Origin: the human T2T-CHM13v2.0 reference genome, Homo sapiens
NCBI GenBank assembly: GCA_009914755.4
Contig: CP068257.2
Location: 25,888,001-25,952,000 of the forward strand
Reading direction: 5' to 3'
Length of the DNA: 64,000 bases
Positions 7,650 to 52,681 of this stretch are shown piece by piece (the stretch's first letter is position 1; each line of letters opens with the position of its first letter). The position numbers were made by a program, and so were the translations under genes. A model generated the notes under the pieces. It did no database searches. It saw nothing but the letters and a program-made list of their open reading frames with translations, and had not been told where the DNA came from.

Positions 7650-11880
<4,231 letters not shown>

Positions 11881-14398: not shown

Positions 14399-15767
<1,369 letters not shown>

Positions 15768-21938: not shown

Positions 21939-22301
21939 TGTATTAGTTTGTTCTCATGCTACTAATAAAGACTTAACTGAGAATGGATAATTTATAAAGG
22001 AAAGAGGTTTAATGGACTCACAGTTCCACATGGCTGGAGAGGCTTCCCAATCATGGCAGAAGATGAAGGAAGAGCAAGGGACGTCTTACATGGCAGCTAG
22101 CAAGAGAGTGTGTGCAGGGGAACGCTTCTTTATAAAACCATCAGATCTCTTGAGACTTATTCACTACCATGAGAACAGCACAGGAAAGACCTTCCCCCAT
22201 GATTCAATTACCTCCCCCTAGAAACCTCCCATGACACATGGGAATTATGGGACCTACAATTCAAGATGAGATTTGGGTAGGGACAGAGCCAAACGATATC
22301 A
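21939..22301 (-). repeat. THE1-type 3' LTR (about 363 bp)
   Basis: See the parent element. Aligns colinearly with the LTR at 23887-24243, with scattered substitutions and small indels. Confidence 0.8.
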
Positions 22302-22479
22302 TTCTGCCCCTGGCCCCTCCCAAATCTCATGTCCTCACATTTCAAAATGAATCATGTCTTCTCAACAGTCCCCCAAAGTCTTAACTCATTTCAGCATTAA
22401 CTCAAAAGTCCACAGTCCAAAGTTTCATCTGACAAAAAGCAAGTTCCTGCCACCTATAAGCTTGTAAAATCAAAAGCAA

Positions 22480-23345
22480 TTAATTATCTTCCAGATAAAA
22501 TGGGAGTACAGGCATTGGGTAAGTGTACCTGTTCCAAATAGGAGCAATTGGCCAAAACAAAGGGGTTACAAGGCCCACGTAAGTCTTAAATTTAGTAAGG
22601 CTGTAATTAAACCCTAAAGTTCCAAAATGATCTCCTTTCATTCCAAGTCTCATATCCAGTTTACCCTGATGCAAGAGGTGAGTTTCCATGGCTTTGGGCA
22701 GCTCCACCCCTATGACTTTGCAGGGCACAGCTTCCCTCCTGTCTGCTTTCACAGACTGGCATTGAGTGCCTGTGGCTTTTCTAGGTGCACAGTACAAGCT
22801 GTTGGTGAATCTACCATTCTTGGGTCTGGAGGATGGTGGCCTTCTTCCCACAGCTCCACTAGGCAGTGCTCCAGTAGGGACTCTGTGTAGTGGCTCCAAC
22901 TCCACATTTCCCTTCCACACTGCCCTAGCAGAGGTTCTCCATGAGAGCTCCTCCCCTGCAGCAAACTTCTGCCTAGACATCCCAGTGTTTCCATATATCC
23001 ACTGAAATCTAGGTGGAGATTCCAAAACCTCAATTCTAGACTTTTGTGTACCCACAGACTTAACACCACATGGAAACTGAAAAGCTTGGGGCTTGCACCC
23101 TCTGAAGCCATGGCCTGAGTTGTACCTTGGCTCCTTATAGCCACAGCTGGAGCAGTTGGGATGCAGAACACCAAGTCCCTCGGCTGCACACAGCAGCGGG
23201 GCTGTGGGCCAGGCCCACAAAACAATTTTTTTCTCCCAGCCCTCCAGTGCTGTGATGGGAGGGGCTGCTTGGAGGGTCTCTGACATGCCCTGGAGACATT
23301 TTCCCCATTGTCTTGGCAATTAACATTTGGCTCCTCATTAGGCAA
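22480..23345 (-). pseudogene. MaLR (THE1) internal ORF remnant, a non-retroviral ORF of unknown function typical of MaLR internal regions
   Basis: ORFs 22480..23319 (279 aa) and 22749..23345 (198 aa), overlapping in different frames, lie wholly inside the THE1 internal region. A frameshift splits the ancestral ORF. No similarity to gag/pol recognisable by eye. Confidence 0.6.
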
Positions 23346-39959: not shown

Positions 39960-40433
39960 TGAATGTGTCTCCCCAAAATTCATATGTCGAAATCCTAATG
40001 TACAATGTAATAGTAATTTGAGATGGGCCTTTGGGAGGAATTTGATCATGAGAGGAGATTCCTTATGATGAGATAAGTGCCCTTATTTTTTTAAAAAGGA
40101 CAGAAAACAGCTTGCTTCTTCTTCTCTGCCTCTCTCTCTCTGTTTCTCTCTCTCTCTCTGTTTCTCTCTCTCTGTTTCTCTCTCTCTCTCTGTTTCTCTC
40201 TCTCTCTCTGTTTCTCTCTCTCTCTCACTCTCTCTCATTCTCTCTCTGTCCCACATGAGAAGACAGTGGGAAGATAGCCACCTATGGAGTGGAGGAGTAC
40301 CCTCACCAAAACTGATCTCAGATGAGACTGGAACCCTGATCTCAAACTGCCATCATCCAGAGCTATGAGAAATGTTTGCTGTCGAAGTCACCTCGTCTAG
40401 GGTAATGTGTTATAACAACCCAAGCTGATGAAG
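39960..40433 (+). mobile_element. Solitary MaLR/ERVL-type LTR (MST/MLT-like) containing an expanded CT-rich minisatellite
   Basis: tgaatgtgtctccccaaaattcatatgtcgaaatcctaatgtacaatgtaatagtaatttgagatgggcctttgggaggaatttgatcatgagaggagattccttatgatgagataagtgcccttattttttt.aaaaaggacagaaaacagcttgcttc.. parallels the LTR pattern tgaatgtgtctccccaaaattcatatgttgaaatcctaac..aatgtgatggtatt.ggaggtggggcctttgggaggtaattaggtcatgagggtggagccctcatgaatgggattagtgcccttataaaagaggcc.gagagagcttgcttgctctctc... Subfamily was not determined. Confidence 0.55.
40121..40250. repeat. (CTCTCTCTCTGTTT)n-type minisatellite (about 9 units) inside the LTR
   Basis: ctctctctctgtttctctctctctctctgtttctctctctctgtttctctctctctctctgtttctctctctctctctgtttctctctctctctcactctctctcattctctctctgtccc. 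Confidence 0.9.
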
Positions 40434-41788: not shown

Positions 41789-42310
41789 TGAATTAGTGAC
41801 TCCCAAGAATTGAAGTCCACAAGAACCTCAGAATGTGATTCTATTTGGGAAAATGATCTTTTCAGATGCAAGTAATTAAGATCTTCAGATGAAATCATAA
41901 TTCTGAACTTAGTATGGGTTCTAACTACAAAGACTGATGCCTTTATAAGAAGAGGAAAAAACACAGAGACATAGAGGTGAAGGTCACCTGAAGATAAAGA
42001 CAGAAATTGGAGTTATGCTCCCACGAGCCAAGGAAGGTTAGGGGCCCCCAGAGGTACAAGAAGAAAGGAAGTATTCTCTCCTTCCTTTGGAAAGAGTGTG
42101 GCCCTGGCTATATTTTGATTTTGGACTTCTAACCCCTAGAACTGTGAGAAAATACATTTCTGTTTGTTTTTAAATCAGTTTGTTGTATTAGGTTGGTGCA
42201 AAAGTAATTGTATTTTTTACCATTACTTTTAATGGCAACAATCGTTAATTACTTTCACACCAACCTAATACATTGTTAAGGCAGACCAAAGTATTAGAGA
42301 GACCCCAAAA
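41789..42310 (+). mobile_element. Solitary MaLR/ERVL-type LTR fragment, interrupted by the MADE1 element at 42188-42268
   Basis: ...cctttataagaagaggaaaaaacacagagacatagaggtgaaggtcacctgaagataaagacagaaattggagttatgctcccacgagccaaggaaggttaggggcccccagaggtacaagaagaaaggaag.attctctccttcctttggaaagagtgtggccctggctatattttgattttggacttctaacccctagaactgtgagaaaatacatttctgtttgttttt parallels the canonical MaLR LTR ..cccttataagaagagga.attagacacagacacacagagggaagaccatgtgaagacacagggagaagacggccatctacaagccaaggagagaggcctcagaagaaaccaaccctgccgacaccttgatcttggacttccagcctccagaactgtgagaaaataaatttctgttgtttaagccaccc. Confidence 0.6.
42188..42268. mobile_element. MADE1 (Hsmar1-derived 80-bp palindromic MITE) flanked by a TA duplication
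   Basis: ttaggttggtgcaaaagtaattgtattttttaccattacttttaatggcaacaatcgttaattactttcacaccaacctaa versus MADE1 consensus TTAGGTTGGTGCAAAAGTAATTGCGGTTTTTGCCATTAAAAGTAATGGCAAAAACCGCAATTACTTTTGCACCAACCTAA. The 37-bp terminal inverted repeats are recognisable. Flanking TA at 42186-42187 and 42269-42270. Confidence 0.85.
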
Positions 42311-44489
42311 TCAGCAGCAGAAAATGTCAGCGGTCTAAGAGAATGAAGTGAGGAGTGAGAACATACACACGGAATAGGCACGAATGGCAAAAATCTTGAT
42401 GCTAAGTCGTGTTTTTGGATGTTGCATTACAAATACAATGAGCCCTTATCAATTAAATGATGGGCTTTCTGGTACTATTGAATGACATCAGTTTCTTTTA
42501 CTTGGGTATATTAACTTCCTTAACTCTACATGAAAAAGTCTTTGCATATCTAGAATATTTCATCAGGGAGTCAAATTGTCTCCTGGATATAAACATCAAC
42601 AAACCAAAACAAGCTTACACAAGTGGAAAGCTTGACATTGTTGAAGAATGAGTGACAGAACCTCAAATGTTTGAATAATGTTTCATTCACAGCTGTTGTG
42701 GCTTCTATCTAGTTGGCAAAACATGTAAGTCTAGCCATGAGCTACCTACCCCAGTCTGAGAAAATTATTTTAACATCTAATGGCCCTTGTCATGTAACTC
42801 CTCAAGGTTATACATTTTTCCATTGATTTTACCATGGAACCTAGAGTTATCAAGAAGTTAAGAAGGGAAATAGATATAAATCCACTTATCTTTAATTAAA
42901 ATTTTTCCTAAAAATTTTTGATATAGGCTTTTTGTAACAAACTGCCTTTAAGTAGGTTTTTCACAACAAAAGTCTACTCATATTCATTATAATGTTTATT
43001 ATGAGCTCTATGTTATTGCCTTAATGACAGTTTCTTGATAACGGAGAATTTTCAAATTAGGTAATTTTCAGAATTAGTTGTGTCACTTTTATATGGAAGC
43101 ACACTTGTTTGTAAATAGTTACCTTCACTCAATTAAAAGGACCATTTGAGTTCATTTCAAACTAACTGAAATGATGATATATTTAGCAGGAGTTTATTGA
43201 TCAAATGCATGGACATTACAGTTCTTACTTGACTTTAATGGCAAATTTCAACTTTTGCAGAATGGGGTTACTTTGCTTTGGTAAACTTTTCTGATCAGAG
43301 AACATTGGTTTGAATCTCATGGTATTTTTCAGCAGTTAGGCTATGCCCACCTCTGGGAAAATGTACCAGTTTTTTTCATACAGCTCATTAAAAATATAAA
43401 TTTAAAAAGCATGTGTGTTTGGGTACTTTCCAGGGATTGAGTATAAATGCATAGTTTTCTAACAATTGAAATAAATAAACAAGGGACAATAGACACAGGA
43501 GTACTAACCAAGCCGCTCCTTAGTAGTGTGACAATATTTCTCTTTTCCTCTTTCTTAGTCTCCAAGTAATTCTAACACATTATCTTTCTAACGCTCACTC
43601 CTAGAGTCATGGGACTTCTCCAGTCATGGGTCATTATTTCAAAGATGAGATAATTCTTCAGGAATGACTTCCAAAGTGGTTTTGCCTCAATGAGTACTCT
43701 GTTGAATCATTAACATAAGGCTAAGCATTTTAAATTTTATGTCTCATGAATTCCACAATGAGAAAGTAAAGGAGAAATTACTTATTGTCAAAAGGAATGA
43801 GATTTTGACTATAATAATTATCTTCTCAAGACAAGAGAATAGAATATAAAATTTACATTTTAATAAAAGAAGACAGATACAGAATATAAAGAAATGTTTT
43901 ATAAATAAGATTTTAGTAAGAATTTATATTTTAATTATATTTTAAGAGAAAAGTAAGATTAAATAACTGGTGATTGTAAATCTGTCTCTTAAATCAGTGT
44001 TCCTCAATTATTTTATCTAAAAATGGATATCAAACTTATATTAACAACTTAATTTTACATCCAATAGGGAAACATACAATTTAAACTTTTTTACAGTAAT
44101 TTTAAAGATAAATATATAAACGGGCTTTGGCACTAATTATTTAAATGAAATAGCTGTTCTCTGAATCTAACTGCATTGAACATTTTCAAAGCCACAGTAT
44201 ATATTTTAATTTACTGCATGTAAAATTCACCCAGTCAAAAAATAAAATCCTCAGTTCTCTTACTCAGGCAGCTCATGCTATAGGAGAGTCACAGAAGTTA
44301 AAATAAGTATAACGGTTTCACAAAAGATGTAGGGTATAGAATAAAAGAAAAGCCTTACAGATGGGAACTGAAATATGAAAAGGAGTTTCTAGGTGGAAAA
44401 GGAAATAAATGAAGGTCAAAACAAAAGAATAAAATATGCAAAGGCCTGGAATCATAAAACAGTATAGATCATTCTGGAAAGGCAAGAAA

Positions 44490-45200
44490 GAGAGAGGTGG
44501 AGACAGCGATAGAATAGAGACAGAGATGGAGATGAAGATGGAGATGGGAGTAGAGGTGGAGGTAGAAGGAGAGGGAGTGGTAGAGCTAGAGATAGAGATA
44601 TAAATGGAAATGAAGATGGGGTAGATAGAGGAAGAGGTAGAGGTAGGGATAGAGATGGAGATGGAGACAGAGATAGAAATAGAGAAATAGGTAGAGACAG
44701 AGTTAGATAGAGGAAAAGTAGAGGTAGATTGAGAAAGAGGTAGAGGTAGAGAAAGAAATAGCATTAGCAATAGAGATGGAGATAGAAACAGACATGCAGA
44801 TGGAGAGAGAGATAGAGGTAGAGGTTGAGGTACAGGTAGAGGTAGAAAAAGGAAGAGGAACAGATAGAGATAGAGACGACAGAGATTGAGGTAGAGGTAG
44901 AGACAAGTAGAGGTAGAGTAGAGACAGATAGAGGTAGAGGTAGGGATAGGGATAGGGATAGAGATGGAGATAGACGTAGAGACTGAAGTAGAATAGAGAT
45001 AGGTAGAGGTAGAGTAGGGGCAGAGGAAGAGGTAGAGGTAGGGATAGAGATAGAGATAAGAGATAAAAATATATAGAGATAGAGATAGAAGTCGAGATTG
45101 AGGTAGAGGTAGACAGAAATAGAGACAGAGTTAGAGATAAAGGTAAGGATAGACAGTAAGAGAAAAAAAGAGACAACACAGAGACAGAGAGAATTTCCAT
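44490..45200 (+). repeat. About 700-bp imperfect purine-rich hexamer minisatellite (GRTAGA/GAGATA/GGTAGA)n
   Basis: ...gagacagagatggagatgaagatggagatgggagtagaggtggaggtagaaggagagggagtggtagagctagagatagagatataaatggaaatgaagatggggtagatagaggaagaggtagaggtagggatagagatggagatggagacagagatagaaatagagaaataggtagagacagag... Almost exclusively G/A/T on the top strand and strongly strand-asymmetric. The minus-strand ORFs 44318..44770, 44703..45281 and 44764..45228 (S/L/I/Y/P-rich) are repeat read-throughs. Confidence 0.95.
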
Positions 45201-46506: not shown

Positions 46507-48856
<2,350 letters not shown>

Positions 48857-51279: not shown

Positions 51280-51969
<690 letters not shown>

Positions 51970-52681
51970 TGACTTATAAATGACATTTTACTTAGTCGTG
52001 TTTATTGTGAGTCATCTATATCAAAGAACTATTGTTATAAGGTGTTTTACACATTCCTATCGCACGTAAAAAGAAGAAGTGGAGTTAGAATGCATTCCAT
52101 GAGTATGCCTCGCTTTTAAGTATGTAATTATGAGCTGCAAACCATGAAACACTGTCTATGACACATCTTTAATGATACATTTTCAGAGCAGTACATCATA
52201 GCAACTGTGAGAAGTTAAAGCTTTAAATGAAGTCAATTCTATAGGATTCTTCTTTATATTAGGCTTTGATTGTCAATCTATGTATGCAACTTAAATACTA
52301 TATATACATACATATAAAAACATACACCAACTATACAAATTAGAACATGTATATAAACTATATAACTGTATTTAGTATTAAAGTTATTTACACTTTGACA
52401 GCAAATTGTTTTTAAACATATGTGAGGTTATATCTGTTTCTTTGTATATTAATTAATATGTGTGTATAGATATATTATTTTAAAATACAGATATATATGT
52501 GTGTATATATTTTTTTCTTTAAATTTGGTTGGAAAAACTCTAGAAATATGTATTTTAAGATCAGAGCATAAAGAATTTCTATAATTTAAAATATTACAAA
52601 TAAATAGCATCTGTAGCTTTGCTGGATATGACTAAACATTTCAATAACTCTGTTTTTGTATGATTCTATAAAAAATAATTA

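What the first reader, a model, noticed from the sequence alone, without database searches (positions are those of the whole stretch)
42186..42270. MADE1 MITE (miR-548-type hairpin precursor) inserted, with TA duplication, into an ancient MaLR LTR
The 81-bp element has long terminal inverted repeats (TTAGGTTGGTGCAAAAGTAATTG....CAATTACTTTCACACCAACCTAA-like) and would fold into a near-perfect about 37-bp-stem hairpin if transcribed. MADE1 copies are the established evolutionary source of the primate miR-548 family. Whether this copy is an annotated or expressed miR-548 member cannot be determined from sequence. The centre is mutated (..tgtattttttaccattacttttaatggcaacaatcgttaatt..), which would put bulges in the stem.
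Basis: partly seen in the sequence, partly recalled or inferred. Interest (0 to 1): 0.5.

Follow-up and report, generated by a model that had tools for sequence, protein, structure and literature searches.

The report
Decayed MADE1 transposon copy in LTR
This is one ordinary, mutated copy of MADE1, an 80-base palindromic primate transposon with thousands of copies, sitting inside an older LTR repeat; it can still fold into a hairpin like the miR-548 microRNA precursors, but nothing suggests it is a working microRNA gene.

Summary
Window 42188-42268 is an 81-bp palindromic element flanked by TA on both sides (42186-87, 42269-70). It matches the Rfam mir-548 model, which is in effect the MADE1 consensus, end to end (E 1.4e-13). 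The score is 67.6 bits on the minus strand and 60.6 on the plus strand, both below the family's gathering score of 90.

It is 85-88% identical to the consensus, and its loop orientation is on the minus strand.

It interrupts a roughly 390-bp TG...CA LTR-like dispersed repeat. I rebuilt that repeat from 73 unrelated copies. Its consensus has a single TA exactly at the insertion point, and the host copy is only about 72% identical to it, so the host is older than the insert.

The RNA hairpin is real (-39.8 and -31.6 kcal/mol; z -11.4 and -8.4) but damaged. A 7-10-nt internal loop on each arm lies where the mature miRNA duplex would be. Its stability equals the median of simulated neutral decay from the -64.9 kcal/mol consensus.

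Both SETMAR-binding cores are degraded.

Verdict: a known kind of repeat, decaying neutrally, of low interest. Whether the locus is annotated or expressed could not be tested with these tools.

The parts
42186..42187 (.). Left copy of the TA target-site duplication
   Evidence: Read directly. The host-repeat consensus has a single TA at this point. TA duplication is typical of Tc1/mariner elements (PMC2836564).
42188..42268 (-). MADE1 miniature inverted-repeat element, 81 bp. The consensus orientation, defined by the loop AAAAGT, is on the minus strand.
   Evidence: Rfam RF01061 matches full length at 67.6 bits on the minus strand and 60.6 on the plus strand. Identity is 85.2% to the Rfam consensus core and 87.7% to the MADE1 consensus as I recall it: 9 substitutions and 1 inserted base. 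It is the only copy in the window.
42188..42224 (.). Terminal inverted repeat, 37 bp (the 3' arm in consensus orientation). The first 23 bases are identical to the consensus; GCGG has become GTAT and GCC has become ACC.
42225..42230 (.). 6-bp central spacer: ACTTTT on the plus strand, AAAAGT on the minus strand
   Evidence: Published architecture: two 37-bp repeats around 6 bp (PMC1784062).
42231..42268 (.). Terminal inverted repeat, 38 bp, with one inserted base, five substitutions and a retained CpG at 42243-42244
42269..42270 (.). Right copy of the TA target-site duplication
42195..42213 (+). Degraded SETMAR/Hsmar1 transposase core site, GGTGCAAAAGTAATTGTAT. It has 3 mismatches, all at positions 17-19. 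The partner site on the other arm has more than 3 mismatches.
   Evidence: Core motif and the essential positions G2, G4, T14, C17, G18, G19 are from PMC8327481.
41789..42185 (+). 5' part of the host LTR-like repeat, probably an MLT1-type MaLR LTR. Its AATAAA has mutated to AATACA at 42153-42158.
   Evidence: 73 dispersed copies were retrieved with a 22-mer from this repeat. A consensus of 37 copies, 389 bp with TG...CA ends, is. The window aligns to consensus positions 10-374 at 71.6% identity.
42271..42300 (+). 3' part of the same host repeat, continuing after the insertion. The local alignment stops at 42287, so the 42300 end is approximate.

Best explanation
Window 42188-42268 is a fixed, immobile, neutrally decaying copy of MADE1, the ~80-bp deletion derivative of the primate Hsmar1 mariner transposon.

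Inferred history: Hsmar1 transposase cut and pasted the element into a TA dinucleotide about 30 bp from the 3' end of a much older solo LTR, probably an MLT1-type MaLR, and duplicated the TA. This probably happened around 50 million years ago.

Since then it has gained 9 substitutions and a 1-base insertion. These cluster around the CpG-containing GCGG/CCGC part of both arms.

If the region is transcribed, either strand would still fold into a long hairpin of the miR-548 precursor type. A 7-10-nt internal loop on each arm now lies in the part of the stem that would form the mature miRNA duplex. The copy is therefore most likely a poor or non-substrate for Drosha/DGCR8 and Dicer, and it has no function of its own.

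What is shown: the element's identity, its architecture, the target-site duplication, the relative ages of insert and host, the hairpin energies, and the agreement with neutral decay.

What is inferred: the absolute age, the lack of processing and the lack of function.
For: **Identity**
- Rfam mir-548 matches full length at E 1.4e-13.
- The architecture is 37 + 6 + 38 bp and identity to the consensus is 85-88%. This fits the published Made1 description (PMC1784062).

**Insertion**
- Host-repeat copies align through the reconstructed empty site, and their consensus has one TA at the junction.

**Relative age**
- The host is 71.6% identical to its consensus, against 85-88% for the insert.

**Neutral decay**
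- The consensus hairpin folds at -64.9 kcal/mol.
- In 3000 simulated copies with 9 substitutions and 1 indel, the more stable strand has a median of -39.6 kcal/mol (5-95%: -48.9 to -31.1).
- The observed values are -39.8 and -31.6. In the simulation, 49% of copies (more stable strand) and 67% (less stable strand) are at least as stable.

**Evidence against miRNA-gene status**
- The score is below the Rfam gathering threshold (67.6 and 60.6 against 90 bits), and nothing in the whole window reaches a gathering score.
- At the positions homologous to the mature miRNAs, only 12/22 and 11/22 bases are paired on the plus strand, and 14/22 and 15/22 on the minus strand.

**Priors**
- There are 76 miRBase pre-miR-548 loci (PMC8501715), against 7,850 Made1 copies (PMC1784062) and 6,626 homology candidates (PMC7996739).

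**SETMAR sites**
- One core has 3 mismatches, all at essential positions. The other has more than 3.
Against: - The hairpin is still far more stable than shuffled sequence, with z of -8 to -11.
- The first 10 bases of both 5p-homologous arms, including the family seed AAAGUAA, are intact and paired.
- A 2025 study reports 1,108 unannotated mir-548-like small RNAs scored as strong Drosha/DGCR8 substrates (PMC11833695).
- 390 MADE1-type loci were labelled miRNA in GENCODE v19 (PMC4330264).
- Low-level processing, or an automatic annotation of this copy, therefore cannot be excluded.
- Neither the genomic locus nor its transcription could be determined with these tools.
- The simulation used a MADE1 consensus recalled from memory (it differs from the Rfam consensus only at two positions flanking the loop) and a simple mutation model.
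Confidence: 0.88

Rival explanations
1. [quoted passage not shown] It would be transcribed, for example within an intron, cut by Drosha/DGCR8 and Dicer, and would yield a 5p miRNA with the family seed AAAGUAA.
For: - The hairpin is stable on both strands.
- Rfam mir-548 matches full length at E 1e-13.
- The seed region is intact and paired.
- Many MADE1 copies give small RNAs (PMC11833695; PMC1784062).
- 54 of the 76 annotated family members are intronic (PMC8501715).
Against: - The score is below the Rfam gathering threshold.
- A 7-10-nt internal loop on each arm lies inside the would-be mature duplex, so only 11-15 of 22 positions are paired.
- Hairpin stability is exactly what neutral decay predicts.
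- The copy-specific sequences occur in no searched paper text and not in the supplements of the mir-548 family survey.
- From memory, they match no miRBase miR-548 mature sequence.
- The prior is about 1% for miRBase loci per MADE1 copy.
- The family itself is rated 'of questionable authenticity' by some authors (bioRxiv 10.1101/2021.12.09.471935).
Confidence: 0.07
2. The element acts as a DNA site. Its terminal repeats would recruit SETMAR, the domesticated Hsmar1 transposase fused to a histone methylase, and so modulate local chromatin or expression of a host gene.
For: - SETMAR binds Hsmar1/MADE1 terminal repeats in vivo (PMC6326780; PMC8327481).
- The left repeat still matches the 19-bp core with 3 mismatches.
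Against: - SETMAR affinity falls with each mismatch, and C17, G18 and G19 are among the essential positions (PMC8327481).
- All three mismatches of the left site fall on those positions, and the right site has more than 3 mismatches.
- Only 11.3% of repeats with 3 or fewer mismatches are bound at all.
- The window is AT-rich (GC 33-39%) and full of L1 sequence, with no sign of a nearby gene.
Confidence: 0.03
3. The palindrome is not a transposon copy. It would be a chance or locally generated inverted duplication within the LTR.
For: None beyond the general fact that AT-rich DNA contains short inverted repeats.
Against: - The 23-nt end is identical to the family consensus, with 0 expected by chance.
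- The match to the family model is full length.
- The ends are exact and flanked by TA.
- The 81 bp are absent from all 61 aligned copies of the host repeat.
Confidence: 0.005

Closest known systems
MADE1 (mariner-derived element 1), the non-autonomous Tc1/mariner MITE of Hsmar1 in anthropoid primates
   Same: - Length: 81 bp here, 80 bp in the consensus.
[quoted passage not shown]
- The terminal 23 bases are identical on one arm.
- TA target-site duplication.
- Full-length match to the family consensus.

   Different: Nothing categorical. There are 9 substitutions and a 1-base insertion, concentrated in the inner third of both arms.
mir-548 microRNA precursor family (Rfam RF01061; 76 human miRBase loci)
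   Same: - Same ancestral sequence and the same hairpin type.
- The family 5p seed AAAGUAA is present on both strands.

   Different: - Scores 67.6 and 60.6 bits against a gathering score of 90.
- A large internal loop lies inside the would-be miRNA duplex.
- No evidence of expression or annotation.
- Stability is as expected for neutral decay.
MLT1-type MaLR (ERVL-MaLR) solo LTR, as host of the insertion
   Same: - A dispersed ~389-bp unit with TG...CA ends.
- An internal AATAAA.
- A 3' end ...CCCAGTCTGTGGTATTTTGTTATGGCAGCC...ACTAATACA, as I remember MLT1 consensus sequences.

   Different: - The window copy is heavily diverged, at 71.6% identity.
- The family name was not tested against Dfam or Repbase.
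- The reference copies were selected by an exact 22-mer, so their consensus may represent a different subfamily.
SETMAR-bound Hsmar1 terminal repeats
   Same: Carries the 19-bp core region on both arms.
   Different: One site has 3 mismatches at essential positions and the other has more than 3. Weak or no binding is predicted.

Membership tests
MADE1 (Hsmar1-derived Tc1/mariner MITE) | [quoted passage not shown] | tested here: met
   81 bp = 37 + 6 + 38. The definition is from PMC1784062.
MADE1 (Hsmar1-derived Tc1/mariner MITE) | Sequence similarity to the family consensus over its full length | tested here: met
   The Rfam RF01061 consensus (MADE1 plus the TA flanks) is matched at positions 1-84 of 84, E 1.4e-13. 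Identity is 85.2% to that consensus core and 87.7% to the consensus as I recall it.
MADE1 (Hsmar1-derived Tc1/mariner MITE) | TA target-site duplication | tested here: met
   TA lies on both sides. There is a single TA at the homologous point in the consensus of 61 host-repeat copies.
MADE1 (Hsmar1-derived Tc1/mariner MITE) | Classified as MADE1 by Dfam/RepeatMasker | not testable with these tools
   No repeat library is available.
MADE1 (Hsmar1-derived Tc1/mariner MITE) | Insertion restricted to anthropoid primates, with an empty orthologous site in other mammals | not testable with these tools
   No eukaryotic genome collection is available. Scans of genome contigs and viral contigs found no MADE1 at all.
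mir-548 microRNA genes (Rfam RF01061 / miRBase) | Covariance-model score at or above the curated gathering score (90 bits) | tested here: not met
   67.6 bits on the minus strand and 60.6 on the plus strand. The whole-window gathering scan found nothing.
mir-548 microRNA genes (Rfam RF01061 / miRBase) | Hairpin in which the mature miRNA pairs extensively with the opposite arm. The usual annotation criterion is at least ~16 of ~22 positions paired and no large internal loops; this criterion is from my own knowledge of miRNA annotation guidelines. | tested here: not met
   Paired positions are 12/22 and 11/22 on the plus strand, and 14/22 and 15/22 on the minus strand. The internal loops are 9x10 and 8x7 nt.
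mir-548 microRNA genes (Rfam RF01061 / miRBase) | Small RNAs of ~22 nt with defined ends from both arms, dependent on Drosha and Dicer | not testable with these tools
   No expression data are available.
mir-548 microRNA genes (Rfam RF01061 / miRBase) | Entry in miRBase or MirGeneDB at this locus | not testable with these tools
   No miRNA database is available. The copy-specific strings are absent from the searched paper texts and one supplement set, which is weak evidence only.
MaLR (MLT1-type) LTR, host element | Dispersed repeat of LTR size with TG...CA termini | tested here: met
   73 loci share the 22-mer. A 389-bp consensus begins TGTTATGG and ends ACTAATACA, and column support drops outside it. 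The window aligns to positions 10-374.
MaLR (MLT1-type) LTR, host element | Match to a named MLT1 consensus in Dfam or Repbase | not testable with these tools
   The name rests on my memory of MLT1 and THE1 consensus sequences. Paper-text searches for consensus strings found nothing.
MaLR (MLT1-type) LTR, host element | 5-bp target-site duplication flanking the LTR (PMC2836564) | not tested
   The LTR ends in the window are too diverged to place to the base.
SETMAR-bound Hsmar1 terminal repeat | 19-bp core GGTGCAAAAGTAATTGCGG with few mismatches and intact G2, G4, T14, C17, G18, G19 | tested here: not met
   The left site has 3 mismatches, at positions 17, 18 and 19. The right site does not match within 3 mismatches. 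The criteria are from PMC8327481.

The most novel reading that the evidence does not exclude
This degraded MADE1 copy is nonetheless transcribed and processed into a low-abundance, unannotated miR-548-family small RNA. The most likely product is a 5p species with the family seed AAAGUAA, from whichever strand is transcribed. It would join the more than 1,100 unannotated mir-548-like Drosha-substrate candidates reported in 2025 (PMC11833695).
Probability: 0.07. Interest if true: 0.15.

Novelty: already known. Interest (0 to 1): 0.07.

Why it matters
It matters little. MADE1 copies number in the thousands in anthropoid genomes. Their link to miR-548 and to SETMAR binding has been described since 2006-2007.

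This copy adds a clean example of a nested insertion: a young DNA transposon inside an old LTR, at a TA that is conserved in the LTR consensus. It also shows a palindrome losing hairpin stability at exactly the neutral rate.

The practical lesson is for annotation. A full-length, highly significant hit to the mir-548 model, below the gathering score, marks a transposon copy and not a microRNA gene.

Tried and rejected
1. **Other MADE1 copies for a population comparison.** There are none in the window, in the 73 fetched loci, in genome contigs or in viral contigs. I replaced this comparison with a neutral-decay simulation.
2. **Evidence that this copy is a described miRNA.**
   - Full-text searches for four plus-strand, copy-specific strings (two sequences, each as RNA and DNA) found no paper. 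The minus-strand strings were never run through the full-text search; they were searched only in supplements.
   - The supplements of the mir-548 family survey, searched for strings of both strands, have no hit.
   - The supplements of PMC11833695 are not held.
   - Liang et al. 2012 (PMC3468316) is not held.
3. **Naming the host repeat from the literature.** Consensus strings occur in no paper text. A self-BLAST of the flanks against the window found no second copy.
4. **Weak Rfam hits to plant MIR families** (MIR7996, MIR2630 and others; 18-25 bits against gathering scores of 80-230) and to snoRNA sn1502 at 42483-42573 (18.5 against 60 bits). I rejected these as chance matches of an AT-rich hairpin.
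5. **Primary-miRNA flank motifs.** There is no CNNC at the canonical distance on the plus strand. On the minus strand a CAAC starts about 13 nt after the expected cut, not 16-18 nt. This is not informative.
6. **Genomic locus and host gene.** I did not pursue these because no eukaryotic genome or annotation resource is available.

Full report
**1. The observation**

The sequence at 42186-42270 reads TA | TTAGGTTGGTGCAAAAGTAATTGTATTTTTTACCATT ACTTTT AATGGCAACAATCGTTAATTACTTTCACACCAACCTAA | TA.

- The element proper is 42188-42268 (81 bp).
- It has a 37-bp left arm, a 6-bp centre and a 38-bp right arm.
- The repeat finder reports 26-nt arms that are 92% complementary. They extend two bases beyond the TA on each side, at 42184-42209 and 42247-42272.
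- This is the best short-range inverted repeat in the 64-kb window.
- The 23-nt terminal sequence occurs only here, once per strand, with none expected in shuffles.

As RNA, the plus strand folds at -31.6 kcal/mol (z -8.4) and the minus strand at -39.8 kcal/mol (z -11.4). The hairpin survives the addition of 40-nt flanks.

The stem is not near-perfect:

| Strand | Pairs | Internal loops |
|---|---|---|
| plus | 29 | 2x2 and 9x10 |
| minus | 33 (three G-U) | 8x7 |

**2. What it is**

The Rfam mir-548 model (RF01061) has a consensus that is the MADE1 sequence with its flanking TA. It matches over all 84 positions on both strands, at 67.6 bits (E 1.4e-13) on the minus strand and 60.6 bits on the plus strand. 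The family's gathering score is 90. A gathering-threshold scan of the whole window returns nothing.

Identity to the Rfam consensus core is 85.2%. Identity to the MADE1 consensus as I remember it is 87.7%, which is 9 substitutions and one inserted base. Both figures are in the minus orientation, which is the one that reproduces the consensus loop AAAAGT.

[quoted passage not shown] All three testable defining features of MADE1 are met.

The window is a mammalian, evidently primate, AT-rich region. GC content is 33-39%, and it holds several LINE-1 ORF2 fragments (RVT_1 domain at E 3e-32).

**3. The insertion site**

No second copy of the flanking sequence exists in the window. I therefore used a 22-mer recalled from the MLT1 consensus, which differs by one base from the window copy (42139-42160), to pull 73 unrelated copies from host-contaminated metagenome contigs.

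- BLAST of the reconstructed empty site (element and one TA removed) against these copies gives alignments that run straight across the junction.
- In a multiple alignment of 61 copies, the 81 bp are absent from every copy.
- The consensus reads ...CCCAGTCTGTGGTA|TTTTGTTATGGCAGCC...ACTAATACA, with a single TA exactly where the window has TA-element-TA.

A consensus of 37 longer copies is a 389-bp unit that begins TGTTATGG and ends ACTAATACA. Column support collapses outside these ends.

The window copy aligns to consensus positions 10-374, at window 41789-42287, and probably continues to about 42300. Identity is 71.6%. The host is therefore an LTR-sized dispersed repeat with TG...CA ends, and it is clearly older than its insert.

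TA duplication is the Tc1/mariner signature (PMC2836564). The sequence agrees with my memory of MLT1-type MaLR LTRs, but the name could not be tested. No repeat library is available, and consensus strings are not printed in any searchable paper.

**4. Is the hairpin maintained?**

The consensus MADE1 with its TA flanks folds at -64.9 kcal/mol.

I simulated 3000 copies, each with 9 substitutions (CpG-weighted, transitions favoured) and one indel:

| | Median (kcal/mol) | 5-95% range | Observed | Simulated copies at least as stable |
|---|---|---|---|---|
| More stable strand | -39.6 | -48.9 to -31.1 | -39.8 | 49% |
| Less stable strand | -34.1 | -43.1 to -25.5 | -31.6 | 67% |

The observed copy sits at the middle of the neutral distribution.

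The substitutions are not compensatory. The inner part of both arms, around the CpG-bearing GCGG/CCGC, has mutated independently, and this creates the internal loop. Two transitions in one arm give G-U pairs on the minus transcript and C-A/A-C mismatches on the plus transcript, which explains the difference between strands.

**5. Would it work as a miRNA precursor?**

At the positions homologous to the family's mature products, only 12/22 and 11/22 bases are paired on the plus strand, and 14/22 and 15/22 on the minus strand. The seed-proximal 10 bases, with seed AAAGUAA, remain paired.

From established knowledge of Microprocessor substrates, a stem of about 35 bp with a mostly paired upper stem is needed. 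A 7-10-nt loop on each arm, about 24-26 bp above the base, should strongly reduce productive cleavage. This is inference, not a test.

Figures from the literature:
- 76 pre-miR-548 loci in miRBase 22.1, of which 54 are intronic (PMC8501715).
- 6,626 homology candidates in the human genome (PMC7996739).
- 390 MADE1-type 'miRNA' loci in GENCODE v19 (PMC4330264).
- 1,108 unannotated mir-548-like candidates rated as strong Drosha substrates (PMC11833695).
- Some authors regard the whole family as being of questionable authenticity (bioRxiv 10.1101/2021.12.09.471935).

The plus-strand copy-specific strings appear in no searched paper text, and strings of both strands are absent from the family survey's supplements.

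**6. The DNA-level alternative**

SETMAR binds the 19-bp core GGTGCAAAAGTAATTGCGG. Its affinity falls with each mismatch, and G2, G4, T14, C17, G18 and G19 are critical (PMC8327481; PMC6326780).

In this copy the left core (42195-42213) has three mismatches, all at positions 17-19. The right core exceeds three mismatches. Weak or no binding is expected.

**7. Age (inference)**

Nine substitutions in 80 bp is about 11%, with a large sampling error. At a typical primate neutral rate this fits the roughly 50 million years given for the entry of Hsmar1 into primates (PMC9062482 and PMC6326780 abstracts). The host's 28% divergence fits a repeat that predates primates.

**8. Verdict**

The feature is an ordinary, neutrally decaying MADE1 copy nested in an older LTR. 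It is a known kind of element, and in any annotated primate genome it would already be masked.

The only open point is whether this copy gives rise to small RNAs or carries an automatic miRNA annotation. That needs the genomic coordinates and expression data. Interest is low.

Noticed in passing
window 42153-42158: The AATAAA inside the host LTR is conserved in all 73 retrieved copies, because the 22-mer used to fetch them contains it. In the window copy it reads AATACA, so any polyadenylation signal from this LTR is lost.
   Followed up: partly
window 22266-22330: An inverted repeat with 26-nt arms, 81% complementary (ATGAGATTTGGGTAGGGACAGAGCCA / TGCCCCTGGCCCCTCCCAAATCTCAT). From memory, the arms resemble the 5' end of THE1/MST-type MaLR LTRs (…CCCACCCAAATCTCAT…). 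This may be two such ends facing each other. Two long overlapping minus-strand ORFs (279 and 198 aa, 22480-23345) lie next to it; the 279-aa ORF has no Pfam match, the 198-aa ORF was not scanned.
   Followed up: no
window 44581-45139: A long degenerate (TAGAGA)n-type simple repeat of about 95 units at 68% matches. It produces several spurious low-complexity ORFs of 150-192 aa on the minus strand.
   Followed up: no
window 40123-40249: A (CT)n-rich microsatellite of about 59 units at 81% matches.
   Followed up: no
window 46609-48856 (also 10933-11301, 14655-15368, 51280-51972): LINE-1 ORF2 fragments on the plus strand. The 191-aa ORF at 46609-47184 has a reverse-transcriptase domain (RVT_1, E 3e-32). 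The 578-aa ORF that follows has the typical L1 ORF2 C-terminal sequence but no Pfam hit. Three other fragments share the same C-terminal motif. The window is therefore an L1-rich, AT-rich primate region.
   Followed up: partly
window 42265-42275 and 42287-42297: An 11-nt inverted repeat (CTAATACATTG / CAAAGTATTAG) between the end of MADE1 with its flank and the diverged 3' end of the host LTR. It is probably a chance match.
   Followed up: no
loci L001-L073 (metagenome contigs): Seventy-three low-coverage contigs in public metagenome assemblies carry a mammalian LTR repeat. They are evidently host-genome contamination in those assemblies.
   Followed up: no
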